From Candidatus Limnocylindria bacterium (lineage in GTDB: Bacteria; Chloroflexota; Limnocylindria; P2-11E): a stretch of DNA of 64,000 nucleotides. Position 1 is the stretch's first letter. The number at the start of each line of letters is the position of its first letter. The position numbers and the translations under genes are program-made. Location of the stretch: the NCBI GenBank assembly GCA_035651155.1, contig DASRGG010000021.1:339752-403751 (forward strand), in the 5' to 3' direction. This document shows, piece after piece, positions 8,436-64,000 of this stretch. The notes beneath the pieces were generated by a model, which was not told the origin of the DNA, made no database searches, and was given only the letters and a program-made list of their open reading frames with translations.

Positions 8436-8863
8436 GGATCGACGCGAGCTACACCTACCCGGCCGCGCCCGCGCAGGTCTGGGCGAGGCTCCTCGACCCC
8501 GAGTCACTCCGCGCCTGTATCCCAGGATGCGAAGCGCTGGAGTCGATCGGCCCGGACCGTTGGAACGCACGGCTGAGCGTCGGCGCCGGCCCCATCCGCG
8601 GCACGTACACCGGCGCCGTCGCGATCACGGGCAAGCGCGAGCCGATGTCGTACACGCTCGAGGTCGAGGGCCGCGGCAGCCCCGGCTTCGTGAAGGGAAG
8701 CGCGCAGGTCACTCTCGTCCCCGACGGCGTCGGGACGCGGGTCGACGTCGTCGCGGACGGGCAGGTCGGTGGCACCGTCGCGGCGGTGGGCCAGCGCATG
8801 CTCACCGGCGTGGCGAGGAGCCTCATGGGGCAGTTCTTCGACTGCCTGCGAAGCCGGCTGTGA
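8432..8863 (+). CDS. SRPBCC family protein (CoxG-like carbon monoxide dehydrogenase subunit G)
   Basis: 143 aa starting (V)RIDASYTYPAAPAQVWARLLDPESL, with the CoxG/polyketide-cyclase-like fold signature. GTG overlaps the upstream stop. Confidence 0.65.
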   Translation: MRIDASYTYPAAPAQVWARLLDPESLRACIPGCEALESIGPDRWNARLSVGAGPIRGTYTGAVAITGKREPMSYTLEVEGRGSPGFVKGSAQVTLVPDGVGTRVDVVADGQVGGTVAAVGQRMLTGVARSLMGQFFDCLRSRL

Positions 8864-9633
8864 GGCGCGTCGCCATCGTGATGGCCGCGAGCGACGGCCT
8901 CGGCCGCGCTGCGGCGGAGGCGCTCGTCCGCTCCGGGCACGCAGTGGTGTTCTGCGCGCGGCGACCGGACCGCGTGAGCGCGACGGAAGAATCGCTGCGC
9001 GGGTCGGGTGGCGAGGCCGTCGGGGTCGTCGCTGACGTCACGAAGCCCACGGATCTCGAGGGCGTCTTGGCCGTCGCCGACGCGCGCTTCGGTCGCCTCG
9101 ACGTCCTCGTGACGAATGCCGGCGGCCCGCCGCCCGGCGCGCTCCTTTCGGTCACCGACGAGCAGTGGCAGGCGGCGTTCGAGCTCACGCTCATGAGCGC
9201 GGTGCGCGCCATCCGGCTCGCGATCCCGCGCATGAAGAAGAACGGCTACGGCCGTATCGTCGCCATCGGCTCGTCGTCGGTGCGTCAGCCGCTCGAGAAC
9301 CTCGTGCTGTCGAACGCGATGCGGCCGGCCGTCGTCGGCGTCGTGAAGAGCCTCGCACCTGAGATCGCGGCGGAGGGCATCACCGTGAACGTCGTTTCCG
9401 CGGGCCGCGCCGACACGGAGCGCGTGCGCCAGCTCGACGAAGGTCGAGCGAAGGCGCGCGGACTTTCGTACGCGGACTACCGGGCGTTGGCCGAGCAGCA
9501 GATCCCGATCGGGCGGTACGCGAAGCCGAGCGAGGTCGCGGCGCTCGTCGCGTTCCTCGCCTCCGAGGACGCCGCCTACATCACCGGCCAGAGCATTCTC
9601 GTCGACGGCGGCATGGTGAGGTCTCTGCCGTGA
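8860..9633 (+). CDS. SDR family oxidoreductase
   Basis: Rossmann N-terminus RRVAIVMAASDGLGRAAAEAL, NAG motif VTNAGG, and C-terminal ITGQSILVDGG. Confidence 0.8.
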   Translation: MRRVAIVMAASDGLGRAAAEALVRSGHAVVFCARRPDRVSATEESLRGSGGEAVGVVADVTKPTDLEGVLAVADARFGRLDVLVTNAGGPPPGALLSVTDEQWQAAFELTLMSAVRAIRLAIPRMKKNGYGRIVAIGSSSVRQPLENLVLSNAMRPAVVGVVKSLAPEIAAEGITVNVVSAGRADTERVRQLDEGRAKARGLSYADYRALAEQQIPIGRYAKPSEVAALVAFLASEDAAYITGQSILVDGGMVRSLP

Positions 9634-10550
9634 CCGCAAAGCGAGGCGCCGCACTGTACGAGCGGATGAGTGGTGTGTTCACGATCTTCCTCACACCGTT
9701 CACCGCGGGCGGCGAGGTCGACCTCGACGCTGCTGCGGAGAACGTGGACTACCTCATCAAGGCCGGCCTGAACGGGATCGTCGTCGCCGGCACGTACGGC
9801 GAGTACGTGACGCTCACGCTGCGGGAGCGGCGGACGCTGCTCCGAGCCGTGGTACGGGCCGCCGCCGGACGGGTCCCGATCGTCGCGTGCACCGCGGGCG
9901 GCAGCACCGCGGAGGTCATCGACTATACGCGTGACGCCGAGGAGGCCGGTGCGGACGGCGCCATGATCACGCCGCCGTACGGCATGATCGAGCCGACCGA
10001 GGGCGCGATCGTTGGCCACTTCGAAGCGGTGGCGCGCGCGACGAACAGCGCGCTCCTTCTCTACAACAACCCCAACATCCACCCCACCCTCGCACCGGAG
10101 CTTCTCGCGCGGCTCGCCGACATCGACGGTTACGTCGGCATCAAGCAGGGCGCGACGACCTTCGCCGAGCACGCCGAGCTCATCGCCCTCGCCGGCGATC
10201 GCCTCCGCATCTTCTGCGGCTCGGACCAATCGATGGTCGGCTCGCTCGCACTCGGCGCCGTCGGCCTCAGCTCGACGCAGTCGAACTTCATTCCCGAGAT
10301 CATCCGCGACACGTACCGCGCGATGACCCGCGGTGACCTCGGGACGGCGCGCGAGCTGTTCAACAAGTGGGGCCCGTTCCGCCGATTCGCCCGCCGCGCG
10401 GGGCAACCGGCCGCCGCGAAGGCCGCCGTCGAGCTCCTCGGTCGGCGCTGCGGGACCGTGCGAGCGCCGCTCGTGCCGCTTGCGCCGGTGCAGCGAGCCG
10501 AGCTCGCTGACATTCTCCGTGGGATGGGCCTGGACGTACGGAGGCCGTAA
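9630..10550 (+). CDS. Dihydrodipicolinate synthase family lyase (DapA-like)
   Basis: GIVVAGTYGEY motif and YNNP motif of the DapA/NAL class I aldolase family; 306 aa. Confidence 0.8.
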   Translation: MTAKRGAALYERMSGVFTIFLTPFTAGGEVDLDAAAENVDYLIKAGLNGIVVAGTYGEYVTLTLRERRTLLRAVVRAAAGRVPIVACTAGGSTAEVIDYTRDAEEAGADGAMITPPYGMIEPTEGAIVGHFEAVARATNSALLLYNNPNIHPTLAPELLARLADIDGYVGIKQGATTFAEHAELIALAGDRLRIFCGSDQSMVGSLALGAVGLSSTQSNFIPEIIRDTYRAMTRGDLGTARELFNKWGPFRRFARRAGQPAAAKAAVELLGRRCGTVRAPLVPLAPVQRAELADILRGMGLDVRRP

Positions 10551-54445: not shown

Positions 54446-56341
54446 CTATTTCGCTGACCGCACGCCGCGCATGCGCTCTGCCGTGCGCATCGCCAGCGCC
54501 ATCACGGTCGTCATCGGATTCACGCCCGAGGCGCTCGGGAACGCGCTCGCGTCGGTCACGTAAAGACCGCGCACGCCCCAGACCCGGCCGTCGGGGTCGG
54601 CGACCGAGGACGCGCGATCCCGCCCGATGCGGCAGCTCGACATCTGATGTGCCGAGAAGAGCGTCACCCGGTTGGCGGCGATACCGCGCCGGCCGATCTC
54701 CGCCACGAGATCGTCGACCCGCGTCGCCTCGAGGTCGAGCGGCGGTGTGTGCAGAGTGAAGATGCGCCGCGCGCCGGCGGCGGCGTGGATCCGCGCGGCC
54801 TCGACCATCCCGCGCTCGAGGAGTGCGCGCTCGCTCGCGCCATTCACGTAGCTGACGAGCGGCTCCCCGTCGCGGTCGACCGTCACGCGCCCTGCATCGC
54901 GATCGCGCACGATCGCGATGAACGGCGCGACGTGGCGCGCTTCGGTCGCGCGACCCTGGTGCGCCGCCGCGCCCCACCAGGGGAACGAGGCCGCCAGGAT
55001 GCCCGGATACGCCTGCGGGACCTCGAGGCGGAAGCCGTGCGCGCCGTCGATCTCGGCGAACGCGCTCACGACGACCGACTGCGGCACGCCCGACCACACA
55101 CCGCCGAGGTCCTCGTCGTACACGCCGGAGGTGACGGACACCGGGTGCAGGTGCAGGCCGCGACCGGCCTGTCCGGACGCGATCCCCGATCGCAGCAGCA
55201 GCGCCGGTGAGTGGATCGACCCGCCCCCGAGGGCGATGAGCGGCGCGCGCACTCTCAGCTCACCGCCCTCGACCCGTGCGGTCACGCCGGTCACGGCTCC
55301 GCGCGCGGACTCGATGCGGCGCGCGTCGGTGCCGGCGAGGATCTCGGCGCCCGCGGCCGAGGCATCGGCGAGGAACGTGCGCGGCGCCGACTGCTTCGCG
55401 CCGCGACGGCAGCCGAGCGTGCAGTGCCCGCAGTCGCCGCAGCCCTTCACGTTGCGCGCGATCGTCGCCGGCTCGAGTCCGAGCGCGCTCGCGCCCCGCT
55501 CGAGGGCGGCGTTCGCGCCGTTGCGCGCGCTCTCGTCGGTGTCGACGTCGGACCGCGCCTCGACCGCCGCGTAGCACGCCGCGAGATCGTCGACGCCCGC
55601 GCGCCGCCACTCCTCGGCGACCGCCGGGCTGATGCGCAGCGAGGTGTTCCAGTTGACGACGGTACCGCCGCCGACCGCCGATCCCGCGAGCAGGGCGATG
55701 GCGCGATCCTGCGTCGCGGCGATGCCGCGATCGACGAAGAGCGCCGCGTAGCCCGCGAGCTCGCGCGAGTCAAAGGAGTCCTCGAACCGCGGCCGAGCGC
55801 GCTCGAGGATGACCACGCGCTTGCCGGCGCCCGCGAGCGTAGCGGCGGCGACGGCCCCGCCCGCGCCCGAGCCGATGACGCAGACGTCAGCCTCGATGAC
55901 CTCGCCGGCGCGCGGCACGCGCACGCGGAGCGTCGATGGCGACATGGGCGGCAGCGGCGGACGCGCGTAGCCCATCGCCGCGGCGTAGGGCGAGCCGTCG
56001 ACGCCATACGCATAGAGCAGGGTGAGGCGCTTCATGACCTGGAACGCGCGGCGCTTCAGCGCGAGCGGACTGGTCGCCCACCGCTTGAGATACGCCTCGC
56101 GCTCGTGGTGCGCGAGCGAGGAGAAGCGCGACGGACGGCCGGTGAGGATGAGATTGAGCGGCGGCGATTCGATGGTGTCGAGGAGCTGATCGAGCTCGGC
56201 GAGGAGCGCGGGCCGCCCGAGCGCGGTGACCTCGGCCCGGAGCAGCTCGGGCACGCCGAGCGCGGATGCGGAGGGAAGGCCATCGCCGCCGGGTACGAAG
56301 GTGTCGCAGATCGCGGCGAGCGCGCGTGCGCGGTCCGGCAC
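54446..56341 (-). CDS. GMC family FAD-dependent oxidoreductase with N-terminal gluconate-2-dehydrogenase-subunit-3-like extension
   Basis: ADVCVIGSGAGGAVAA (FAD GxGxxG), GMC core and C-terminal active-site region (HQMSSCRIG, GLYVTDASAFPSASGVNP). The first ~140 aa (ICDTFVPGGDGLPSASALGVPEL) resemble the small subunit family fused in frame. Confidence 0.75.
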   Translation of the reverse strand: MPDRARALAAICDTFVPGGDGLPSASALGVPELLRAEVTALGRPALLAELDQLLDTIESPPLNLILTGRPSRFSSLAHHEREAYLKRWATSPLALKRRAFQVMKRLTLLYAYGVDGSPYAAAMGYARPPLPPMSPSTLRVRVPRAGEVIEADVCVIGSGAGGAVAAATLAGAGKRVVILERARPRFEDSFDSRELAGYAALFVDRGIAATQDRAIALLAGSAVGGGTVVNWNTSLRISPAVAEEWRRAGVDDLAACYAAVEARSDVDTDESARNGANAALERGASALGLEPATIARNVKGCGDCGHCTLGCRRGAKQSAPRTFLADASAAGAEILAGTDARRIESARGAVTGVTARVEGGELRVRAPLIALGGGSIHSPALLLRSGIASGQAGRGLHLHPVSVTSGVYDEDLGGVWSGVPQSVVVSAFAEIDGAHGFRLEVPQAYPGILAASFPWWGAAAHQGRATEARHVAPFIAIVRDRDAGRVTVDRDGEPLVSYVNGASERALLERGMVEAARIHAAAGARRIFTLHTPPLDLEATRVDDLVAEIGRRGIAANRVTLFSAHQMSSCRIGRDRASSVADPDGRVWGVRGLYVTDASAFPSASGVNPMTTVMALAMRTAERMRGVRSAK

Positions 56342-56371: not shown

Positions 56372-56531
56372 CCTACTTCTTGACGGTGCGCCGCGCGACG
56401 CCGCCGTACACGGTCGGACCGTCGAGCCTCGCCCACGCCGCGTCGGCCTTCGTCTTGTCCGCGTACACGACGACGGTGTCCTCGTTGGCGCGCTCGTCCC
56501 ACGCGGTGACGACGAACACGACATCGGCCAC
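56372..56531 (-). CDS. Small hypothetical protein (~52 aa) with strong RBS
   Basis: Alternative frame to the track ORF: GGAGGTAATCAT-GTG, then ADVVFVVTAWDERANEDTVVVYADKTKADAAWARLDGPTVYGGVARRTVKK with balanced composition. Coordinates are +/-2 nt. Confidence 0.3.
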
Positions 56532-56586
56532 ATGATTACCTCCGAGACATCAGAACGCCGGCAACCGGCCGGCGTTCAGTGCGCTG

Positions 56587-56659
56587 AGCGGAAGACGGGT
56601 CTCGAACCCGCGACCTCGTCCTTGGCAAGGACGCGTTCTACCAACTGAACTACTTCCGC
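56587..56659 (-). tRNA. tRNA-Gly (anticodon GCC)
   Basis: GCGGAAG/CTTCCGC acceptor, anticodon stem CGTCC/GGACG with loop TTGCCAA, T-arm GCGGG-TTCGAGA-CCCGT. Confidence 0.85.
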
Positions 56660-56687
56660 ATGCAGGCGAGACGCGACGCGACCCCAA

Positions 56688-56921
56688 TCATAAAACCTTG
56701 GGACGACCGACGCGCGCCGCGTATCGCTTCGGCGAACGGACGCGCAAAGCAGTCACACGTTTGAGATCCCGGATGCTGACGTATGCCTCGGGGTCACCCG
56801 CCCGCCTGGCCCGCGCCACTTTGCCCGCGGCTATCAGGCGATAGAGCGTTGCCCGCGACAGGCCGAACTGCCGCAGCGCGGCCCTGACCGTGAGCCAATT
56901 CCTTGTATCACGTTGTATCAT
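56688..56921 (-). CDS. AlpA/excisionase-family HTH DNA-binding protein
   Basis: 77 aa; RAALRQFGLSRATLYRLIAAGKVARARRAG is a phage-excisionase/AlpA-type HTH_17. Confidence 0.6.
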   Translation of the reverse strand: MIQRDTRNWLTVRAALRQFGLSRATLYRLIAAGKVARARRAGDPEAYVSIRDLKRVTALRVRSPKRYAARVGRPKVL

Positions 56922-56932
56922 GTTGTCTCAGT
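56903..56932. repeat. Three tandem decamers TTGTATCACG / TTGTATCATG / TTGTCTCAGT spanning the start codon of the AlpA-like gene
   Basis: Read directly: ccTTGTATCAcgTTGTATCAtgTTGTCTCAgt. Copy 2 contains the ATG (reverse strand). Confidence 0.5.
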
Positions 56933-56962
56933 CGAAACCTCTAGCCATTTTCCGTCTTCGCG

Positions 56963-57271
56963 GTGCAAGCGGCAACCGATAGCGAATCGGAGAATCTACT
57001 GAAGAACACGACGGCCCAGGGCGATGTCACGGAGTGGCAGGTCGCGGCGGCGCTCATGCGCCAGGGCCACAAATTGCTTCGTCCGCTCTCGTCAGCCACT
57101 CGCTACGACCTCCTGATCGATCACGAGGATGGCAGGTGCACGCGCGTCCAGTGCAAGACTGGCGTCTTGCGGAACGGTTGCGTCGTATTCCGCCTCTACA
57201 GCGTCAGCGGGCACAATGGCGGGTACCACTTAGCCTCATCGCATGGCACGTCGAACAGGAGAGCAAGAGCG
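56963..57271 (+). pseudogene. PD-(D/E)XK nuclease-like N-terminal fragment fused in frame to the downstream VOC gene
   Basis: GDVTEWQVAAALMRQGHKLLRPLSSATRYDLLIDHEDGRCTRVQCKT has the E...YDLI...RVQVKT spacing of small Hjc/endonuclease-like PD-(D/E)XK proteins. It runs without a stop into the VOC gene, which has its own RBS and ATG at 57272. Confidence 0.35.
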
Positions 57272-57700
57272 ATGACCACCAAGCTGAACGTCACCTCGGT
57301 CAAGGTCCTCGACCAGCACGAGGCGCTCGACTTCTACGTGAACAAGCTCGGCCTCGAGAAGGCCCAGGACATCAGGCAGGGGCCCTTCCGCTGGCTGACG
57401 GTGCGGTTCCCGGGCGACGAGGTCGAGATCTTCCTCGAGGAGCCAGGACCGCCTCTTCACGACGAGGCGACCGCCGCGCAGCTGCGGGAGCTCATCGCCA
57501 AGGGCGCCATGAGCTCGCTCGTTTTCTACTCGGACGACGTACGGGGTCTTTACGAGACGCTGCAGGCGCGCGGCGTGAGCGACTTCACCCAGGAGCCGAT
57601 CGAGCACGCCTACGGGACCGACATGGGACTCCGCGATCCCTTCGGCAACGCGATCCGGGTCCTCCAGCCGCCGAAGTCCCGGCAGAAAGCGACGGTGTGA
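57272..57700 (+). CDS. VOC family protein (glyoxalase/bleomycin resistance fold)
   Basis: MTTKLNVTSVKVLDQHEALDFYVNKLGLEK...FRWLTV...IFLEE...FYSDDVRGLYETLQARGV...DPFGN is a paired beta-alpha-beta-beta-beta module pattern; AGGAG RBS upstream. Confidence 0.75.
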   Translation: MTTKLNVTSVKVLDQHEALDFYVNKLGLEKAQDIRQGPFRWLTVRFPGDEVEIFLEEPGPPLHDEATAAQLRELIAKGAMSSLVFYSDDVRGLYETLQARGVSDFTQEPIEHAYGTDMGLRDPFGNAIRVLQPPKSRQKATV

Positions 57701-57702
57701 CG

Positions 57703-58161
57703 ATGCCCGCGAAGAAGACCGCGACAAAGACCGGTGCCAAGCGCGAGCGCGGGTCGGGCCTCACCGCCGAGGAGAAGGCCGCCATGCGGGAGACGCTCGC
57801 GGACGAGAAGGCGAGAGCGAAGGGCGTCGAGGGCGAGAAGCTGCTTCTCCAGAAGATCGCCGCGATGAAGGAGCCCGACCGCGGCATGGCAAAGCGCATC
57901 CACGCGATCGTGAAGGCGAATGCTCCGAGCCTCACGCCAACTACCTGGTACGGGATGCCGGCGTATTCGAAGAACGGCAAGGCCGTCCTCTTCTTCCAGG
58001 ACGCTGCCAAGTTCAAAGCGCGCTACGCGACGCTGGGCTTCAACGACATCGCGACGCTGGACGACGGAGAGATGTGGCCGACGTCGTTCGCGCTCAAGGA
58101 GATGAACGCGGCGACCGAGGCGAAGATCGCGGCGCTCGTGAAGAAGGCGGTGCGGTCCTAG
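57703..58161 (+). CDS. DUF1801 domain protein (YdhG-like)
   Basis: 152 aa; Lys-rich N-terminus, then KRIHAIVKANAPSLTPTTWYGMPAYSKNGKAVLFF typical of DUF1801. Confidence 0.6.
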   Translation: MPAKKTATKTGAKRERGSGLTAEEKAAMRETLADEKARAKGVEGEKLLLQKIAAMKEPDRGMAKRIHAIVKANAPSLTPTTWYGMPAYSKNGKAVLFFQDAAKFKARYATLGFNDIATLDDGEMWPTSFALKEMNAATEAKIAALVKKAVRS

Positions 58162-58543
58162 AACGCGTCTTCGCGACGTTGTGCGCGACGGCGGCCTTCA
58201 CGATCACCTTGAGCGCCCGCTCATCGAGCTTCTCGTTCTCAGAGACGTCGATCGCCCGCGACTTGCCCAAGAGCTGGGCATTGAAGAGCTTCTTCGGGTC
58301 CGGAAGGCTCGAGCCCGCCGGGAACGAGAGCCGCACTCGCTCCTTGAGGACGACCCCGATGCACACTATCCCGTCGTGCGACCAGACGGCGGAGCCGAGC
58401 GGATCGCTGGGTCGCTTCCACTTCACGTCCTCCGCAATGTCGGGGTCCGCGTCGTGGACGATCTTTCGGAGCCTCGCCAGCGTCGCGCCGCGCCGACCGG
58501 GCGTCTTCGCGATCAGCGCGTCGACCGGGCCCGCTCGTGTCAC
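58158..58543 (-). CDS. DUF1801 domain protein (second, convergent copy)
   Basis: VDALIAKTPGRRGATLARLRKIVHDADPDIAEDVKWKRPSDPLGSAVWSHDGIVCIGVVLKERVRLSFPAG. Likely GTG start; stops of the two DUF1801 genes overlap tail-to-tail by 2 nt. Confidence 0.5.
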
Positions 58544-58567
58544 GGGAGCGTCACCGAAACGACACTG

Positions 58568-58615
58568 TGCCGAGGGCCAGGATCGAACTGGCGACACATG
58601 GTTCTTCAGACCATG
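58568..58615 (-). other. tRNA-like fragment (anticodon arm with GAA, variable loop, T-arm, 3' acceptor strand; D-arm absent)
   Basis: Reverse strand: CATGGT-CTGAAGA-ACCATG, TGTC, GCCAG-TTCGATC-CTGGC, CCTCGGC-A. The 5' side has only GCCGA and no D-arm, so it is a pseudo-tRNA or att remnant, not a functional tRNA-Phe. Confidence 0.35.
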
Positions 58616-58722
58616 CGTCTCGGATTCGGCCAGAACGCTAGCAAATCGACGACGGGGCGCACGACGACGCATTGTCCAGCAACGAATTGTCCGACGAGCG
58701 TCGCGCGCTCCATGCCGCCTTG

Positions 58723-59268
58723 TCAGCCTGATTTCTCGATCTGCGCGATCGCGTTCTTCGCCATCTCGTTCAACGTGTCCACCGCCTCTTCGAGTGCCTG
58801 GCGCTTCTCGGTTGGCTTCGCAGTCGTGTCGCCCGCCTTGGCGTCGTTGAACGCGAGCGCGTATTGGTTGAAGGCAACAAAGACCTTCTGGTACTGGTCG
58901 ACGAACTGCTGCGAGTCGGTCTCGAGCGCGAGCTGGGCGCGCGCCTCGTTCACACCCTTCGACCCCTCCTGGAGCATGGCCGTGAGGCGCTTGTTCTTCG
59001 CGTCGTCGGTCTCGCCGCCATAGCCGAAGACCATGCCGACGGAGACGGACTGCATCGACCACGAGCCGAGGAGGAGTGGCTGCAGTGCAGCGCGCATGCG
59101 CGCGAGCTTGCCATCGCGCACCAAACGCCGGTCGCGGCGAGTGTCGCGCCGCTCCTCGAAGTAGGCCGCGAGCCAGAAGCCCGCGAGCGCGCCGAGCGCT
59201 GGACCGATGAGCGGCCACGCGGAAGCGATCCACCCCGTGACCGTCGAGATCAGCGCTGCAATGTCCAT
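58723..59268 (-). CDS. Small membrane-anchored hypothetical protein, third gene of the pAgo operon
   Basis: 181 aa; one N-terminal TM (AALISTVTGWIASAWPLIGPALGALAGFWLAAYF), then a soluble helical domain. ATG lies 10 nt downstream of the pAgo stop, same strand. Confidence 0.5.
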   Translation of the reverse strand: MDIAALISTVTGWIASAWPLIGPALGALAGFWLAAYFEERRDTRRDRRLVRDGKLARMRAALQPLLLGSWSMQSVSVGMVFGYGGETDDAKNKRLTAMLQEGSKGVNEARAQLALETDSQQFVDQYQKVFVAFNQYALAFNDAKAGDTTAKPTEKRQALEEAVDTLNEMAKNAIAQIEKSG

Positions 59269-59278
59269 CTTCGCAAGA

Positions 59279-60778
59279 TCAGATGTAGAACTTGAACTTG
59301 GCCTTGCGGTCCTTGACGTTCGGGTTGGCGACGAGGATCTCCCCCACCGCGTCTGAGAATCCGACGGTGACGGGCTCGACCTCGCCCAGGCGACACGCGT
59401 TGTAGTTCAGCTTGGTCAGACCAAAGATGTCCGATACCACCTGATCGAGGTCAGCCTCGCCGTGCTGCACATCGATCTGGAGCGGCAGTGGCGTCTCCCA
59501 CCCGTCGTACGTTCCGAGGCGCGGCTTGTAACCCGTCGTCCAGAGGAACGCGGTTCGGTCCGAGACGCGCCAGTACGTACCGCGGACCACGGGAAGATGA
59601 CCCTCGCGGAAGAGACGCACGTCGAAACGTTCCTGACGGACACGAACGCCGATGAGGCGCACGCCCTCCGGGCAGGCCTCCTGGAAGCCCGCGAACTCGT
59701 CGGCGTTCAGGCCCGACCTCGCGTGCAGGAACAGCTCCGTGAGCGGCTGGCCACCGAGCTCCTTGTAGGTGTCCAGCGCGCCGGTCAGGAGATCGCGCGC
59801 GCCGTCGTAGCTCAGGTGGTACTGGTTGCGCTCGGGCGAGTACCAGGGCCCGAACTCGCCCATGAAGACGATGCCGTCGCCACTGTCGAGGAACATCTGA
59901 GCGGCGCACGCGGCCACAGGGCTATCTGAACTCGGATCACGCCGGCGGTAGGCCAGTCCGAGGTAGCAAACACCCGGGCGCGCCGTGCTCAAGCGCCATG
60001 GCTTCCCGCCGGCCTTGTAGTAGAGCGCGACACCGAGGTTCCACGCGCGGTCGCACAGCGGCGTCAGGCTGCGCTCGCCGAACTTGTACTCGTCTGACAG
60101 TCGCAGAGTGGACTCGCGCACGATCTGGATCGGAATGCCGTACTTCATCGCACGCGCCTTGATCTGCCGTCTGAAGTCGACGGAGTACAGGAACACGTCG
60201 GGGCTCGTGTCATCGAACAGTCCCGTCTGGCCCGCCTTGCGGACGCGAACGTCCTTGGCCGCCATGCGCTCACCGGAACCGAACGGCACGCGCGAGAGCG
60301 GGCGGCAGTTCTTGTACACGAGGTCGGGAACGACGCACACGATCACATCGACGGGGTCGTCGTGACGCTCGAAGGCGGCGATCGCGTCCAGGTAGCGCTC
60401 CACGACCGCCGCGGCGCGCTTGTGCTCGTCCTTCTGGATGGCCTCGGCGAGGAGCGCGTCCTCATCGACGATGCGCTCGAGCGTCGGCTCTTCGGGAAGG
60501 ACGCAGCCGAAGGCGGGCTCGAAGCCGGGGAACATCGGCCAGAGCGCGGCGCTCCGACCCTCGGGCGGCATCGCGGCACTTTGCAGCCGCTTGGTCAGCG
60601 CCTTGAACGCATCCGTGCCGCGTGGCGTGCCGACGAGGCCCCACGAGACGTTGCGTCGATGCCCCGGCATGTCCGCGTCGAACGCGCCGAAGATGCTCAG
60701 GCCGTCGCGCGGATCCGAGACCGGCTGCGTGTAGCGGAACTCCAGGGGTGGCTCTGGGAGCATCCGAAGATCGATCAC
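59279..60778 (-). CDS. Short prokaryotic Argonaute (MID-PIWI, catalytically inactive), SPARTA-type
   Basis: 499 aa. Near-colinear to the remembered SPARTA short pAgo: DPRDGLSIFG, PMFPGFEPAFGC, YKNCRP, YYKAGGKPWRL, RPGVCYLGLAYRRR, AACAAQMFLDSGDGIVFMGEFGPWYSPE, LTKLNYNACRLGEVEPVTVGFSDAVGEIL, terminal KFKFYI. No DEDX catalytic tetrad. GTG start overlaps the TIR-APAZ stop (GTGA). Confidence 0.9.
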   Translation of the reverse strand: MIDLRMLPEPPLEFRYTQPVSDPRDGLSIFGAFDADMPGHRRNVSWGLVGTPRGTDAFKALTKRLQSAAMPPEGRSAALWPMFPGFEPAFGCVLPEEPTLERIVDEDALLAEAIQKDEHKRAAAVVERYLDAIAAFERHDDPVDVIVCVVPDLVYKNCRPLSRVPFGSGERMAAKDVRVRKAGQTGLFDDTSPDVFLYSVDFRRQIKARAMKYGIPIQIVRESTLRLSDEYKFGERSLTPLCDRAWNLGVALYYKAGGKPWRLSTARPGVCYLGLAYRRRDPSSDSPVAACAAQMFLDSGDGIVFMGEFGPWYSPERNQYHLSYDGARDLLTGALDTYKELGGQPLTELFLHARSGLNADEFAGFQEACPEGVRLIGVRVRQERFDVRLFREGHLPVVRGTYWRVSDRTAFLWTTGYKPRLGTYDGWETPLPLQIDVQHGEADLDQVVSDIFGLTKLNYNACRLGEVEPVTVGFSDAVGEILVANPNVKDRKAKFKFYI

Positions 60779-62124
60779 GTGGTCTCCTCCAGCTCCTCGT
60801 CCCCCACGCCAGGCGTCACGTCCGTCTCGTCGAGCTCCTCCTCGTCGTTCTCGACGGGAAGGGGACCGGCTTCTTCCTCATTGATGCCGTCGGGCGCGGT
60901 GACCGTAAGCGGGATCGCGCGGATGGCCAGGCGACTCTGCGCACGCGAGGTGAGCACGATCTCGCCTTGAGCGTCGGCGAGGAAGGCGCAGCTTCCGAGC
61001 TGGCGGCTCAGCCACTCGTAGTTCCACCAGTCCTTGCACAGGCGCTTCCGCCGGCGGACGAGCTTCACGCCCTGGAGCGGAGTGCCATTGAGGTCCGCGA
61101 GGTATACGCGGTTGCGGAGCTGGATCATCGGCGTCCCGTAGCGGAAGAGCGCCGGTCGGAACTCGACGGCGAGGTGATAGCGGAAGCGCTCGACCCCGTT
61201 CGTGGTCCGCGCGGCGCGCTCGCCGACGGCCTTCACGTGCGTCTTTTCCCCGTCCCATCTCGTGAAGCGCAGTCGGTCGCCGGGGACGAGGCCGCTCGGG
61301 AAATAGACATACTCCTCGTTGGCCGACTCTCTGAGGCCCTTCTGAACGCAGTGGCTGCGCATGCCCTCCTTTAGAAGGACGGTAACGATGTCGCGCGCGA
61401 TCGTCCGCTGCTCGCGATCGTCGTTCTCGAGCCAGGGGATCTCTTCGACCTTGTCGACCTCGACGCCCTCGGGCGGGCCCTCGAACGCGCCGACCACGTA
61501 GTCGTTCTCGGCCCAGTACGTCCAGCTCGAGGCGATCTCCGGTGAGAGCTTCTCATGCAGCGTGATGCGGAGGACGCTGCCGGGTATGTCGGTGATGGGA
61601 AGCAGGTTCGTCCAGAGGCGCTCGGGCCGGCCCGACAGCCGCTCGCGTTCGTGCATGTACTCACGAACGGAGTCGCGCGCCGGCATGAACGTGCGCGGCG
61701 CGTCGACTGAGGTTAGTTTCTTCAGGAGCTGAACGAGGCCGTGAGCCCAGCTCGTGTGGAACGGGATGTATGTGAGATCCGAAAGCTGCCACGGCAGCTC
61801 GTGCGAGGGGAGTGCCTCGACGTTGAGCGGGATGATGAACTCCTGCTTCCTGGCCCGACCGATGTTGAGGGCGATCGTGCGTTCCTTGAGCGGGTTGTCC
61901 TTCTCCTTGGACGCCCGCGAAATGAGCGAGAGCATCCGGAAGGTGCGCTCGTGGAGCGCGCGCTCGATATCCCTGGGGTACGACTCTCCACCGAGGAGCT
62001 TCACGCGATCGCACCACACGCTGTAGCCCTCGCCCGAGAGCTTTAGCGTGAGCCACTCCGCGAGCGCGGCATCCTCGATCGCGTAGTTGATGAACAGGTG
62101 GTCGCGCTCCAGGGCCTCGCCCAC
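60775..62124 (-). CDS. TIR-APAZ protein (SPARTA NADase partner of short pAgo)
   Basis: 449 aa. N-terminal TIR: LFINYAIEDAALAEWLTLKLSGEGYSVWCD, with the conserved catalytic Glu in NPLKERTIAL. APAZ region with KDWWNYEWLSRQLGSCAFLADAQGEIVL and an acidic C-terminal tail. GGAGG RBS 5 nt before the GTG. Confidence 0.9.
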   Translation of the reverse strand: MGEALERDHLFINYAIEDAALAEWLTLKLSGEGYSVWCDRVKLLGGESYPRDIERALHERTFRMLSLISRASKEKDNPLKERTIALNIGRARKQEFIIPLNVEALPSHELPWQLSDLTYIPFHTSWAHGLVQLLKKLTSVDAPRTFMPARDSVREYMHERERLSGRPERLWTNLLPITDIPGSVLRITLHEKLSPEIASSWTYWAENDYVVGAFEGPPEGVEVDKVEEIPWLENDDREQRTIARDIVTVLLKEGMRSHCVQKGLRESANEEYVYFPSGLVPGDRLRFTRWDGEKTHVKAVGERAARTTNGVERFRYHLAVEFRPALFRYGTPMIQLRNRVYLADLNGTPLQGVKLVRRRKRLCKDWWNYEWLSRQLGSCAFLADAQGEIVLTSRAQSRLAIRAIPLTVTAPDGINEEEAGPLPVENDEEELDETDVTPGVGDEELEETT

Positions 62125-62254
62125 GTCCCCTCCGTCGACGGTCGAACTTACGTTCTATCGTAGGTCGGTCGGGTCATCCGAGTAAAGAGACTGTCAAGCG
62201 ATAATTGAGCTTACCGCTAGACTCCAGCCCGCGTGAGCCTCTCCAGTTCTTTCG

Positions 62255-63913
62255 ATGCCAGCGTCGCGGACTAAGAAGCCAACCGCGTCGCCTGGACGAT
62301 CCCCGCGCATCGCGGCGCTCACGGTCTTCCTCCTCCGCCGCGAGATCGAAGACGCGAGGCAGGCACTTGGCGGACGTATCGCCGAGGAGTTTGGGGAAGT
62401 CGAGCTCCGACGGCTGCCGATCGACGCCCGCCTATTCGTGCGTCGCAGCGTCGTCCGCCACCCGTGGTGGGAGTCGTTTTTCGCGAGCGTGACGCGCGAA
62501 CCGCTGGTCGTCAAGGCATCGACCGCTGGCGCGATCCTCTTCGTCACGGTTGCGAAGCAGTTGTTCGCGTTCACCTTTGGCACCGGCCGCTTCGCCCTGG
62601 ACCCGTCGAGTTACGAGCGTGACTTCGGACTGCGCGTGACCCTCAATGCCGTTGACCCGCGGGCGCTGCGCAGTATCGACATGCAGACCGTTGAGGAACT
62701 CACCCTCTTCACGCAGCGACAGGCATCGCGCAGCTCCGGCCTCGAGGTCTTCCAACTCGACGAGATCCGCGACATGCTCCGCGGCGTCGTCGGTCAACCC
62801 AAGGACCCGAGTCTCGCGCAGCTCCTCGCGGGTTCCGACCGGCTAGCGCTGCGTGCGCGTGTCAGGCTGACCGACCTGGCCACGCTATGCGAGCGTCTCC
62901 AAGAGCTCTACGGCTCGAATGTCTACAAGGACGCCTTCGGCTTCATCGATCAAATGCGACGCGTCACTGAACCCGATTTGCTCGCGTCGCTCGACGAGCG
63001 GCTGGTTCAGGCGCTTGAAGAACCCGAAGACGCCACGCTTCACATGGCTCCGCCAGAGCCGATCGACTGGGAAGACTTCGGCGGGTACCGCTACGAGCCG
63101 ATCGACAAGGATGCTCCGCCACGTGGCGACCTCGACGTGGTCGAACTGGTCGAGACCTTCGAGGAAGCGCGCAAGCGTTCGCTGGAGCTGGACGATCTGA
63201 GGAAGCGCGTGCGCGTGGTGAGCCTCTCGGCCGCAACCGGTCAGCCGGCGCATCACTGGTCTCTCTACGACACGATGGTGACGGAGTTCGCCGTCGGCGA
63301 TCAACGCTACGTGCTCAGCGGCGGTGACTGGTTCGAAGTCAGTGCGACCTTCGCCGAGCAAACTGCAGCGGCAGTCAACGCGCTGCCCACCTCGGCGATC
63401 GCCTTTCCTAGTTCACCGAAGGGTGAGGTAGAGGCCCAATACCTCACACGGGCCGTGCCGCTGCTCGAGGCGGGCGAGGGTATCGGTTACGCGCTGATGG
63501 ACCAGAAGCTGGTCGCGTGCACCGGCGCCCCCTCGCGGATCGAGGTGTGTGATCTGCTCAACGAGCTCAAGCAATTCATCCACGTGAAGCGCAGGACGGC
63601 GTCAGCCACGCTTAGCCACCTCTTCGCTCAAGGCACGACTTCGGCGACGGCGTTCATCGGGGATCGGGGGTTCCGCCTGGCAGCACGTGACGAACTACCC
63701 GCGGCGTGGGATGCCGCCGCGATCTTTCCCGAGGACCAGCCCATCGCGGGCGAATACACGGTGACGTACGCCGTGATCGCGCGAGGCAACGGGCCCCTCG
63801 GGGAGACTCTTCCTTTCTTCAGCCAGGTCAACCTGACGCATGCGTCCCGCATCCTGCGCACGATGGGCTTTGCCGTCGAACTCGCGCACATCGAGGAGAC
63901 ACCGGCGCCGTAA
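62255..63913 (+). CDS. Large hypothetical protein, TIGR04141/DUF6119-like ('sporadically distributed' defence-island protein), possible PD-(D/E)XK-like C-terminal core
   Basis: 552 aa, divergent from the SPARTA operon with an AT-richer 130-nt spacer. C-terminal GDWFE...RIEVCDLLNELKQFIHVKR resembles a D...E-x-K nuclease motif. Family assignment is from memory only. Confidence 0.45.
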   Translation: MPASRTKKPTASPGRSPRIAALTVFLLRREIEDARQALGGRIAEEFGEVELRRLPIDARLFVRRSVVRHPWWESFFASVTREPLVVKASTAGAILFVTVAKQLFAFTFGTGRFALDPSSYERDFGLRVTLNAVDPRALRSIDMQTVEELTLFTQRQASRSSGLEVFQLDEIRDMLRGVVGQPKDPSLAQLLAGSDRLALRARVRLTDLATLCERLQELYGSNVYKDAFGFIDQMRRVTEPDLLASLDERLVQALEEPEDATLHMAPPEPIDWEDFGGYRYEPIDKDAPPRGDLDVVELVETFEEARKRSLELDDLRKRVRVVSLSAATGQPAHHWSLYDTMVTEFAVGDQRYVLSGGDWFEVSATFAEQTAAAVNALPTSAIAFPSSPKGEVEAQYLTRAVPLLEAGEGIGYALMDQKLVACTGAPSRIEVCDLLNELKQFIHVKRRTASATLSHLFAQGTTSATAFIGDRGFRLAARDELPAAWDAAAIFPEDQPIAGEYTVTYAVIARGNGPLGETLPFFSQVNLTHASRILRTMGFAVELAHIEETPAP

Positions 63914-64000
63914 GTGGTCGCCTTCGTCCACCTGCAAGCGGTCGGCGGTGGCGAAGCTGTTAGCCCGCTCGGCGAAGGCGAGGGGCACGAGGGCTCGGAT

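What the first reader, a model, noticed from the sequence alone, without database searches (positions are those of the whole stretch)
62255..63913. Divergently transcribed 552-aa TIGR04141/DUF6119-like protein next to SPARTA: candidate single-gene defence or accessory factor
A large ORF with no housekeeping homology shares an AT-richer divergent promoter region with the SPARTA operon. Its C-terminal region has a D...E-x-K-like arrangement (GDWFE ... IEVCDL ... FIHVKR) suggestive of a PD-(D/E)XK nuclease core. This architecture recalls the 'sporadically distributed' ~550-aa family that co-localises with defence genes. Its function is unknown, and it may cooperate with or be independent of SPARTA.
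Basis: inference. Interest (0 to 1): 0.65.

Follow-up and report, generated by a model that had tools for sequence, protein, structure and literature searches.

The report
Uncharacterised DUF6119 defence-island nuclease candidate
The gene is an intact member of a protein family of unknown function (DUF6119/TIGR04141) that turns up again and again inside or beside bacterial restriction-type immune systems, and probably ends in a DNA-cutting domain. That makes it a good but untested candidate for a stand-alone anti-phage gene, not a part of the neighbouring SPARTA system.

Summary
The ORF is real: 62255..63913, + strand, 552 aa. It is a full-length DUF6119/TIGR04141 protein (Pfam 2e-131, NCBIfam 4e-130) under purifying selection (dN/dS 0.125). 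It lies on a lower-GC island in a Candidatus Limnocylindria MAG, transcribed divergently from a confirmed SPARTA pair (TIR-APAZ and short pAgo) and convergent with a tyrosine integrase.

SPARTA linkage is not conserved. One syntenic sister island keeps it; none of the other 87 homologue loci examined does.

Across the family the gene sits in defence contexts:
- Type I R-M lies within about 7 kb in 17 of 90 loci, spread over at least 10 lineages and 8 phyla, often with the order hsdS–DUF6119–hsdR.
- It also occurs inside Hma, at either end of BREX operons, and beside DISARM-like, type IIG/III R-M and Mokosh-like genes.
- It occurs in a prophage and on plasmids.

A confident AF2 model shows a C-terminal β-barrel followed by an αβββαβ core. 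Family-invariant residues are E393, D416, E430, D433, K445, H455 and Q459. The best fold hits are PD-(D/E)XK nucleases, but none is significant.

The family has no PADLOC hit, no solved relative and no functional literature.

Verdict: a plausible independent single-gene defence nuclease. Its function is unproven.

The parts
62255..63913 (+). Complete DUF6119/TIGR04141 coding sequence (552 aa plus stop)
   Evidence: ORF list. Pfam PF19614 2.2e-131, covering profile positions 1-523 of 524. TIGR04141 4e-130. dN/dS 0.125 against the sister ortholog.
62125..62254 (.). 130-bp divergent intergenic region shared with the TIR-APAZ gene; presumed promoters for both transcription units
   Evidence: Sequence read. 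55% GC against 65% for the gene. No sigma-70-type consensus match; the promoter types of this phylum may not be covered by the scan.
62309..62659 (+). N-terminal alpha/beta domain (residues 19-135). The first half is variable. The core is strongly conserved: W72, FGxGR with G109/G111, DFGL with F124/G125, N131.
   Evidence: AF2 model, pLDDT mostly above 85. Invariant columns. Conservation profile. No fold match in PDB.
62660..62761 (+). Conserved segment that is modelled with low confidence (residues 136-169; consensus LRSxDxxTxEELTxxTRRQxSRxSxLxxFGLD; S140, D142, Q156, S158, F166)
   Evidence: pLDDT below 50 for residues 143-167, yet this is one of the two conservation peaks. Candidate mobile gate or substrate-binding loop (inference).
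62762..63205 (+). Middle, mainly helical domain (residues 170-317; D173, G180, P182, G193, C212, Y224, D232, then a variable stretch 256-317)
   Evidence: AF2 secondary structure. Alignment. Conservation profile.
63206..63382 (+). Small five-stranded beta-barrel-like module (residues 318-376) with W335, E344, G357, W359.
   Evidence: C-terminal model, pLDDT 94.7: strands at 320-324, 331-336, 343-347, 350-355, 358-362, then a helix at 364-375. Conservation.
63422..63910 (+). Putative PD-(D/E)XK-like nuclease core (residues 390-552). Elements: alpha1 393-408 (E393, Y396); beta1 412-421 (D416); beta2 428-436 (E430, C432, D433); beta3 440-446 (H443, K445); alpha2 454-478 (S454, H455, Q459, G460, R474); beta4 502-509; alpha3 521-537; beta5 540-549.
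   Evidence: Secondary-structure order. Residues invariant down to 22% identity. Best fold hits: CdiA-CT TA271 (E 0.03, prob 0.63), SfsA, Mus81, FAN1, and phage PD-(D/E)XK nucleases (prob 0.72 and 0.38). None is significant. Codon coordinates verified: E393 63431-63433, D416 63500-63502, E430 63542-63544, D433 63551-63553, H443 63581-63583, K445 63587-63589, Q459 63629-63631.
60775..62124 (-). Context only, not part of the DUF6119 unit: TIR-APAZ gene of SPARTA
   Evidence: PADLOC Aga_TIR-PNTD1-PNTD2 6.1e-69; Pfam TIR_2 1.7e-17.
59279..60778 (-). Context only: short prokaryotic Argonaute of SPARTA
   Evidence: PADLOC pAgo_I 3.4e-169.

Best explanation
The gene encodes an intact, selectively maintained DUF6119/TIGR04141 protein. 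It is an independent, single-gene cargo of a mobile defence island, not a SPARTA subunit.

Most likely it is a soluble, ATP-independent, self-gated nuclease.
- The C-terminal third (a beta-barrel plus an alpha-beta-beta-beta-alpha-beta core) would form a restriction-endonuclease-like (PD-(D/E)XK-type) active site from E393, D433, K445, probably D416 and/or E430, and Q459.
- The conserved N-terminal core and the flexible conserved loop (residues about 105-185) would hold that site inactive, or supply substrate recognition, until invader nucleic acid is met.

Its recurrent nesting inside methylation-based systems (type I R-M, Hma, BREX) suggests that it complements them as a second, differently triggered layer of immunity.

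Shown: family membership, intactness and selection, the defence and mobile-element context, the lack of SPARTA linkage, and the conserved residue set.

Inferred: the nuclease fold and chemistry, DNA (rather than RNA) as substrate, the gating by the N-terminal half, and any anti-phage phenotype.
For: Family and integrity.

Island context: GC falls from 71% to 65% next to tRNA-Gly. An integrase, a recombinase fragment and an HTH_17 gene lie just beyond the window.

Family-wide context:
- Type I R-M within about 7 kb in 17 of 90 loci.
- Annotated operons S-M-S-DUF6119-R with 4-bp overlaps on Mameliella and Paracoccus plasmids.
- M-S-R-SprT-DUF6119 in S. meliloti, and beside type I R-M in Streptomyces at 23% identity.
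- HmaA-DUF6119-HmaB-x-HmaC.
- PglZ-BrxL-DUF6119, and BrxA divergent from DUF6119.
- DrmD, type IIG and type III R-M, and Mokosh-like neighbours.
- A temperate Pseudomonas phage copy beside an integrase.
- The R-M-linked members are scattered over at least 10 lineages of the family tree.

Structure: full-length model pLDDT 87.8, pTM 0.80; C-terminal model pLDDT 94.7. The top named fold hits in two libraries are PD-(D/E)XK nucleases. E393, D416, E430, D433, K445, H455 and Q459 are invariant down to 22% identity.

No P-loop and no transmembrane segment.
Against: - No fold hit is statistically significant: no hit at E<=1e-3 in PDB or BFVD, and TM-scores are 0.44 or lower.
- No sequence or profile link to any Pfam PD-(D/E)XK family, even at E<=10. 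hhalign against the HsdR N-terminal nuclease domain found nothing.
- The canonical acidic residue of (D/E)xK is His443, or Cys in Streptomyces.
- PADLOC 2.0 has no model that matches, and no paper reports a phenotype.
- About 70% of the loci examined show no recognised defence system right next to the gene. Defence enrichment was not tested against a formal background.
Confidence: 0.55

Rival explanations
1. Guard-type abortive-infection toxin with PrrC/PARIS-like logic. The protein monitors a methylation-based restriction complex (type I R-M, Hma, BREX). When a phage anti-restriction factor inhibits that complex, the protein is unleashed and cleaves host nucleic acid (possibly tRNA or other RNA), killing the cell.
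For: - It occupies the same slot as prrC in the EcoprrI locus (established knowledge), between hsdS and hsdR on the same strand, with 4-bp overlaps on both sides in L084 and L092.
- It is inserted between HmaA and HmaB and appended to BrxL.
- The association recurs in at least 10 lineages.
- PD-(D/E)XK folds include tRNases such as some CdiA-CT toxins (established knowledge), and the top PDB hit is a CdiA-CT.
Against: - Most family members, including the window's whole clade, have no R-M-like system nearby, so an obligatory partner complex is unlikely.
- There is no P-loop regulatory domain as in PrrC/RloC.
- The N-terminal core is highly conserved, whereas Hsd, Hma and Brx partners are very diverse.
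- No binding or toxicity data exist.
Confidence: 0.15
2. Accessory or cooperating component of the adjacent SPARTA system, for example a nuclease that generates guides or adds a second effector.
For: The two are transcribed divergently from a shared 130-bp region. The same pAgo / TIR-APAZ / DUF6119 / integrase order is kept in a second genome, with the proteins 73-86% identical.
Against: - That second locus is fully syntenic, including the same tRNA-Gly, so it is one inherited island and not an independent association.
- The SPARTA genes are absent from the other 87 DUF6119 loci, including the 63%- and 60%-identical relatives.
- SPARTA is known to work as a two-gene system (established knowledge).
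Confidence: 0.04
3. A mobile-element function rather than immunity: for example a recombination, replication or addiction nuclease of integrative elements and plasmids, which happens to travel with defence cargo.
For: - The gene lies directly beside tyrosine integrases in the window and in the sister island.
- The same is true in the Pseudomonas prophage.
- Integrase genes recur near the gene in several genome loci (neighbour cluster c5).
- 26 plasmid records carry the gene, half of them conjugative.
- IS110 transposases occur among the nearest neighbours.
- A phytoplasma preprint calls TIGR04141 'commonly associated to mobilomes'.
Against: - Insertion inside R-M, Hma and BREX operons, with translational coupling, is hard to explain by an element-maintenance role.
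- No conserved partner gene such as a relaxase, replication or partition gene emerged from neighbour clustering.
- The position next to an integrase is the typical cargo or hotspot position for defence genes (established knowledge).
Confidence: 0.13
4. A defence-island protein whose C-terminal domain is not a nuclease: another enzymatic or purely sensory/scaffolding role. The conserved Glu/Asp/His/Lys/Gln set would then serve a different chemistry or ligand binding.
For: - All fold matches are non-significant.
- His or Cys replaces the canonical acid.
- A second, equally strong conservation peak in the N-terminal half (N131, S140, D142, Q156, S158, D173) could be the true active site.
- No profile similarity to any known nuclease family.
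Against: - The secondary-structure order and the placement of D433 and K445 on neighbouring strands, followed by a Gln-bearing helix, fit the endonuclease-like core well.
- The only named, higher-probability hits in two independent libraries are PD-(D/E)XK nucleases.
Confidence: 0.13

Closest known systems
DUF6119 (Pfam PF19614) / TIGR04141 'sporadically distributed protein' family
   Same: Full-length, high-scoring member with all family-invariant residues and the same roughly 530-aa single-architecture layout.
   Different: Nothing distinguishes it from the family. The family itself has no assigned function, structure or literature.
PrrC / RloC anticodon nucleases (abortive-infection genes embedded in type I R-M loci)
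   Same: The genomic niche: one gene between hsdS and hsdR in the same operon. Sporadic distribution. A single polypeptide with regulatory and effector parts (the PrrC locus organisation is from established knowledge).
   Different: No ABC-type P-loop (0 of 46 sequences). No hit to any PADLOC model, which is expected to include PrrC/RloC. A different predicted fold. Most members stand alone without R-M.
Single-protein PD-(D/E)XK defence nucleases (Shedu SduA/DUF4263, Gao 'Upx', HamA of Hachiman)
   Same: The predicted logic: an N-terminal regulatory or sensing region plus a C-terminal endonuclease-like domain. A single gene in defence islands, with no immunity partner.
   Different: No detectable sequence similarity (no PADLOC hit at E<=0.01). 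An HxK rather than ExK motif. Different N-terminal domains with no fold match. No experimental validation.
Type IV (modification-dependent) restriction enzymes placed beside or inside type I R-M loci (Mrr, McrBC, TgvAB/GmrSD)
   Same: Co-location with type I R-M, and a putative nuclease that needs no cognate methylase. The paper list includes the V. cholerae VPI-2 study (PMC11411939); that it describes a type I-embedded example is recalled knowledge, not read here.
   Different: No recognisable modified-base reader (SRA, EVE, DUF262 or similar) and no NTPase. The beta-barrel with W335/W359 is only a speculative candidate reader. No homology was detected.
CdiA-CT (E. coli TA271) toxin, SfsA and phage PD-(D/E)XK nucleases (closest folds)
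   Same: The best, though weak, structural matches to the C-terminal domain. SfsA also combines an N-terminal barrel with a PD-(D/E)XK core (the SfsA architecture is from established knowledge).
   Different: E-values 0.006-0.3, TM 0.26-0.44, sequence identity 7-12%. This is not evidence of family membership.

Membership tests
DUF6119 / TIGR04141 | Whole-protein HMM score above the curated cut-off, with end-to-end profile coverage | tested here: met
   PF19614: 439.5 bits against 27, profile positions 1-523 of 524. TIGR04141: 434.7 bits against 35, positions 1-516 of 516.
DUF6119 / TIGR04141 | Family-invariant residues present (W72, G109, F124-G125, G180, G193, W359, E393, D416, E430, D433, K445, H455, Q459-G460) | tested here: met
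   All are present in the window protein.
PD-(D/E)XK (restriction-endonuclease-like) superfamily | Core alpha-beta-beta-beta-alpha-beta topology | tested here: inconclusive
   The secondary-structure order in two AF2 models fits: alpha1 393-408, beta 412-421, beta 428-436, beta 440-446, alpha 454-478, beta 502-509.
PD-(D/E)XK (restriction-endonuclease-like) superfamily | Catalytic D ... (D/E)-x-K signature on strands beta2 and beta3 | tested here: inconclusive
   D433 on beta2 and K445 on beta3 are invariant. The residue two before the lysine is His443 (Cys in Streptomyces). The invariant acids E393, D416 and E430 could substitute.
PD-(D/E)XK (restriction-endonuclease-like) superfamily | Significant structural or profile similarity to a recognised member | tested here: not met
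SPARTA (short pAgo + TIR-APAZ) system component | Conserved co-occurrence with pAgo and TIR-APAZ across independent lineages | tested here: not met
   Co-occurrence is seen only in the window and in one syntenic sister island. It is absent from the other 87 loci.
PrrC/RloC-type R-M-linked anticodon nuclease | N-terminal ABC/P-loop NTPase domain and homology to PrrC/RloC | tested here: not met
   No Walker A motif in 46 of 46 sequences. No PADLOC hit at all.
PrrC/RloC-type R-M-linked anticodon nuclease | Gene embedded in a type I R-M operon | tested here: met
   True for part of the family only: L004, L008, L013, L041, L044, L066, L084 and L092 lie between hsdS and hsdR. It is not true for the window copy.
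Defence-island gene (guilt by association) | Homologues recurrently adjacent to known defence systems in unrelated taxa | tested here: met
   Type I R-M in 17 of 90 loci. BREX in 2 loci. Hma in at least one locus (L071 resolved; the bulk scan counted 2 HmaA matches). DrmD, type IIG and type III R-M, Mokosh-like, AbiE and SPARTA also occur. The associations are scattered over the family tree. No formal background control was run.
Experimentally validated anti-phage system | Measured protection against phage or plasmid | not testable with these tools
   No report was found in the searchable literature.

The most novel reading that the evidence does not exclude
DUF6119 is a new-fold 'restriction guard'. 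It is a P-loop-less nuclease that has been recruited repeatedly into type I R-M, Hma and BREX operons. There it senses the disabling of methylation-based immunity, for example by DNA-mimic anti-restriction proteins, and then triggers nucleic-acid cleavage. This would be a PrrC/PARIS-like logic implemented by an unrelated protein. Stand-alone copies such as the one beside SPARTA would work as generic back-up effectors.
Probability: 0.15. Interest if true: 0.75.

Novelty: new variant of a known kind. Interest (0 to 1): 0.5.

Why it matters
DUF6119/TIGR04141 is a moderately large family: about 3,700 clusters at 50% identity in 1.84 billion representative proteins. It has no function, no structure and no literature, and it is missing from PADLOC 2.0.

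This analysis shows that it behaves like an immune gene. It is sporadic and mobile. It nests repeatedly inside methylation-based restriction systems across at least 8 phyla, and it probably ends in an endonuclease-like domain.

If validated, it would add a new single-gene defence family. It would also give a new example of how R-M-type loci recruit second-line effectors. There is a practical point for SPARTA work too: the neighbouring gene is independent cargo and should not be read as part of that system.

Tried and rejected
1. SPARTA accessory role. tblastn of pAgo, TIR-APAZ and orf181 against all loci found them only in the window's own contigs and one syntenic sister. Rejected.

2. Membership of a known defence family. 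PADLOC 2.0 gave no hit at E<=0.01. PHROGs matched only an unknown-function family, phrog_18579.

3. Sequence links to solved structures. phmmer and a profile hmmsearch against PDB gave nothing meaningful.

4. Pfam scans of four sub-domains at E<=10 returned only DUF6119.

6. hhalign of the C-terminal alignment against an HsdR N-terminal nuclease alignment built from the loci gave prob 0.2%. Uninformative.

7. Homology between the nitrogenase G-subunit and the DUF6119 middle domain. There is a reciprocal weak signal (E = 0.1; the paper read). hhalign gave only 18% probability, and 2.5% with a more diverse alignment. Not supported.

8. att-site search. No direct repeats flank the island within the 17 kb beyond tRNA-Gly, so the island borders are unresolved.

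9. PrrC-like P-loop, HEPN motif, transmembrane segment. None is present or conserved.

10. Literature searches by family name, accession and context found no functional study.
Full report
**Observation**

The window holds an ATG-initiated ORF at 62255..63913 on the + strand, encoding 552 aa, exactly as reported. It is not a chance high-GC ORF.
- It aligns end to end with Pfam DUF6119 (PF19614; E = 2.2e-131; residues 22-546 on profile 1-523/524).
- It aligns with NCBIfam TIGR04141 (E = 4e-130).
- The identical protein is on record from a Candidatus Limnocylindria (Chloroflexota) MAG.
- Against a 74%-identical ortholog its dN/dS is 0.125. That is similar to the neighbouring pAgo (0.11) and TIR-APAZ (0.22).

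The neighbours on the other strand are a genuine SPARTA pair. 60775..62124 is TIR-APAZ (PADLOC Aga_TIR-PNTD1-PNTD2, 6e-69). 59279..60778 is a short pAgo (pAgo_I, 3e-169). The 130-bp divergent spacer (62125..62254) is 55% GC, against 65% for the gene. No sigma-70-type consensus was found in it.

**Local context**

GC falls from about 71% to about 65% immediately after a tRNA-Gly gene at 56586..56659. Two public contigs that carry the same gene extend past the window. Directly after DUF6119 they show:
- a convergent tyrosine integrase;
- several small ORFs;
- a recombinase fragment;
- a sigma-70-like gene;
- an HTH_17 gene.

The gene is therefore cargo of a mobile, lower-GC island. No att-type direct repeats were found, so the island borders stay open.

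**Is it linked to SPARTA?**

A 74%-identical homologue (P0003) shows the same order: pAgo, TIR-APAZ, divergent DUF6119, integrase. That locus is syntenic throughout, including the same tRNA-Gly (pAgo 86% and TIR-APAZ 73% aa identity). It therefore counts as one inherited island.

The next relatives lack SPARTA. P0004 (63% identity) sits among GGDEF, PAS and ABC genes. P0006 (60%) sits next to a ThiF/JAB cluster. tBLASTn with the three SPARTA-operon proteins found nothing in the 80 genome loci, the phage locus and the first plasmid locus fetched by then. Nothing was found in L085 or L088 either. The four plasmid regions fetched afterwards have no such genes annotated. Cooperation with SPARTA is not supported.

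**Family-wide context**

The family is modest in size and uniform in architecture. A profile of the C-terminal domain finds 3,709 clusters at 50% identity among 1.84 billion representatives (E<=1e-3). The domain almost always lies at about 300-530 of a protein of about 530 aa.

Clustering of neighbour ORFs across the loci, followed by Pfam identification, showed the three most recurrent neighbours to be HsdM, HsdS and HsdR. HMMs built from these found a type I R-M system within about 7 kb in 17 of 90 loci. Annotated records confirm the arrangements:
- Mameliella pKUB257 and Paracoccus p3 carry hsdS-hsdM-hsdS-DUF6119-hsdR-SprT, with 4-bp overlaps on both sides of DUF6119.
- S. meliloti pSymB carries hsdM-S-R-SprT-DUF6119.
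- A 23%-identical Streptomyces plasmid copy lies beside hsdR-S-M.

Other immediate neighbours were identified with PADLOC:
- HmaA (E = 0), DUF6119, HmaB (E = 0), one gene, then HmaC (3e-258) in L071.
- PglZ-BrxL-DUF6119 in L006.
- PglX-BrxC-BrxA, divergent from DUF6119, in L003.
- DrmD in L023.
- A type IIG enzyme and a Mokosh-like helicase flanking the gene in L020.
- A type III methylase in L012.

A temperate Pseudomonas phage carries a copy next to an integrase. Twenty-six plasmids carry one. On a neighbour-joining tree the R-M-associated members are scattered over at least 10 lineages from at least 8 phyla. The window's clade has none.

By rough reasoning from established knowledge, a genome has about one type I system per several thousand genes. 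A share of 16-19% of loci within 7 kb is therefore far above chance. No formal control was run.

**Anatomy**

An AF2 model built on 46 homologues is confident (pLDDT 87.8, pTM 0.80). The protein divides into these parts:
- An N-terminal alpha/beta domain (residues 19-135).
- A segment (143-167) that is modelled with pLDDT below 50 yet is one of the best-conserved stretches (LRSxD...TRRQxSRxS...FGLD).
- A helical middle domain (170-317).
- A five-stranded barrel-like module (318-376).
- A C-terminal alpha/beta domain (390-552).

Remodelling residues 318-552 alone gave pLDDT 94.7.

Conservation has two peaks, at residues about 105-185 and about 430-465. When members down to 22% identity are added, the invariant set is W72, G109, F124, G125, G180, G193, W359, E393, D416, E430, D433, K445, H455, L456, Q459, G460 and L519. 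H443 is nearly invariant (Cys in Streptomyces). There is no Walker A motif in any of 46 sequences, no conserved HEPN motif and no transmembrane segment.

**Is the C-terminal domain a PD-(D/E)XK nuclease?**

In favour:
- The order of elements is the canonical alpha-beta-beta-beta-alpha-beta core with an alpha-beta extension. These are alpha1 393-408 (E393), beta 412-421 (D416), beta 428-436 (E430, D433), beta 440-446 (H443, K445), alpha 454-478 (H455, Q459), beta 502-509, alpha 521-537 and beta 540-549.
- D433 and x-K445 sit on adjacent hairpin strands.
- A Gln-bearing helix follows, as in RecB-like nucleases (that comparison rests on my own knowledge).
- In two independent structure libraries the named hits with the highest probabilities are PD-(D/E)XK proteins. 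In PDB these are CdiA-CT TA271 (E 0.03, prob 0.63), SfsA, Mus81 and FAN1. In BFVD they are a phage 'PD-(D/E)XK nuclease domain-containing protein' (prob 0.72, TM 0.44), an 'Endonuclease' and the HGTV-1 PD-(D/E)XK nuclease.

Against:
- None of these hits is significant.
- The full-length search found nothing.
- Pfam shows no second family even at E<=10.
- hhalign against HsdR_N is negative.
- The acid of (D/E)xK is replaced by His.

Only its G and W are conserved, so it is not a catalytic motif; E393 is the conserved helix-1 acid. I rate the fold assignment at about 0.7 and nuclease chemistry at about 0.55.

**Mechanism**

My best-supported reading (confidence 0.55) is as follows. DUF6119 is a stand-alone, ATP-independent, self-gated nuclease carried as independent defence cargo. 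Its conserved N-terminal module and flexible loop control or feed a C-terminal endonuclease-like site. The family complements methylation-based immunity, which would explain its repeated recruitment into type I R-M, Hma and BREX operons.

These data cannot say whether the outcome is direct restriction (type IV-like) or abortive infection.

Rivals:
- A true guard of restriction complexes, with PrrC/PARIS-like logic (0.15). Against it: most copies lack any R-M neighbour.
- A mobile-element maintenance function (0.13).
- A non-nuclease role for the C-terminal domain (0.13).
- A SPARTA accessory (0.04).

**Comparison with what is known**

Membership of DUF6119/TIGR04141 was tested and met. The family is not in PADLOC 2.0. 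It has no solved relative. It appears in the searchable literature only as an annotation string.

By genomic position it resembles PrrC/RloC, but it fails their defining P-loop and homology tests. By predicted logic it resembles Shedu, Upx and HamA-type PD-(D/E)XK defence proteins, but without detectable homology. By location it resembles type IV restriction enzymes placed near type I loci, but without a recognisable modified-base reader.

**Novelty and verdict**

The gene is an ordinary member of a catalogued but uncharacterised family. What this analysis adds is family-level evidence that the family is a defence-island resident with a marked affinity for R-M-like operons, and probably a nuclease. 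It is a credible new single-gene defence candidate (a new variant of a known kind) and not a SPARTA component. Interest: 0.5. It is well worth an experiment, but it is not surprising to a specialist and its function is unproven.

Noticed in passing
window 62807-63004 (protein residues about 185-250); alignments A1, A4, A5: There is a reciprocal weak similarity between the DUF6119 middle helical region and the 'orphan' nitrogenase G/delta subunit. The profile hit to 8boq_C has E = 0.1. PMC11018506 independently lists PSI-BLAST hits from VnfG to TIGR04141 at E 0.026-0.064. Profile-profile comparison gives only 18% probability, or 2.5% with a more diverse alignment, over about 46 residues. This is probably a chance motif (C...YKxxFxWI), not homology.
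   Followed up: yes
window 56586-56659 and 56500-64000: tRNA-Gly(GCC) on the - strand sits exactly where GC drops from about 71-75% to about 62-66%, marking the edge of the island that carries SPARTA and DUF6119. The island lies on the 5' side of the tRNA gene. No att-like direct repeat was found within the next 17 kb. The same tRNA-Gly flanks the sister island.
   Followed up: partly
window 58723-59268 (-): A 181-aa ORF lies 10 bp downstream of the pAgo gene. It has a hydrophobic N-terminus (Kyte-Doolittle 19-residue maximum 1.59) and no Pfam, NCBIfam or PADLOC hit. The sister island has an unrelated 158-aa ORF in the same slot, so this position after SPARTA is variable.
   Followed up: partly
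window 56963-57700 (+): A single 245-aa ORF combines a PDDEXK_5 match with a Glyoxalase/VOC domain. In the sister island PDDEXK_5 is a separate 106-aa gene. This may be an in-frame fusion, a truncated nuclease remnant or a start-codon artefact.
   Followed up: no
window 56688-56921 (-): A 77-aa helix-turn-helix ORF, with a faint AbiEi_4 match and an excisionase/AlpA-like look, lies right next to the tRNA-Gly at the island edge.
   Followed up: no
window 55454-55532 (+): The ARAGORN tRNA-Ala(CGC) call lies inside the 631-aa GMC-oxidoreductase ORF (54446..56341, -). It is probably a false positive.
   Followed up: no
window 62681-62755 (residues 143-167): This segment is among the most conserved in the family (Q156, S158, F166 nearly invariant), yet it is the only part modelled with pLDDT below 50. 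It may be a mobile gate or a substrate- or partner-binding loop.
   Followed up: partly
L088 10068-12811: The 60%-identical homologue P0006 sits beside a ThiF (E1-like) gene, a Prok-JAB gene and two small ORFs. This looks like a ubiquitin-like (Bil-type) defence cluster. Its identity was not verified.
   Followed up: no
L071 6451-19056: DUF6119 is inserted between HmaA and HmaB of a complete Hma system (HmaA E = 0, HmaB E = 0, HmaC 3e-258). A RecD-like 1,185-aa gene lies upstream. Insertion of a foreign gene within Hma may be of interest in itself.
   Followed up: partly
L052, L054, L055, L058, L074 (about 8470-9650 in each full-length locus): In five actinobacterial loci an HTH_3 + Peptidase_M78 (ImmA/IrrE-like) gene lies directly upstream of DUF6119. 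In four of them (not L055) a RecD-like gene of about 1,187 aa lies further upstream (intact in L052, L054 and L058; only fragments were recovered in L074). An HTH/M78 gene also occurs, in the opposite orientation, in L061 and L082. This may be a regulatory module of a shared element.
   Followed up: partly
L084 12889-13605; L090 6116-6817; L092 11937-12653: A SprT-family zinc metalloprotease gene follows hsdR in all three annotated type I R-M operons that carry DUF6119. AbiEi/AbiEii lie upstream in L084 and L092.
   Followed up: no
L004 13538-14770; L008 and L012 neighbours (cluster c13): An AAA_14 + DUF4143 ATPase gene recurs near DUF6119 and type I R-M loci (5 loci).
   Followed up: no
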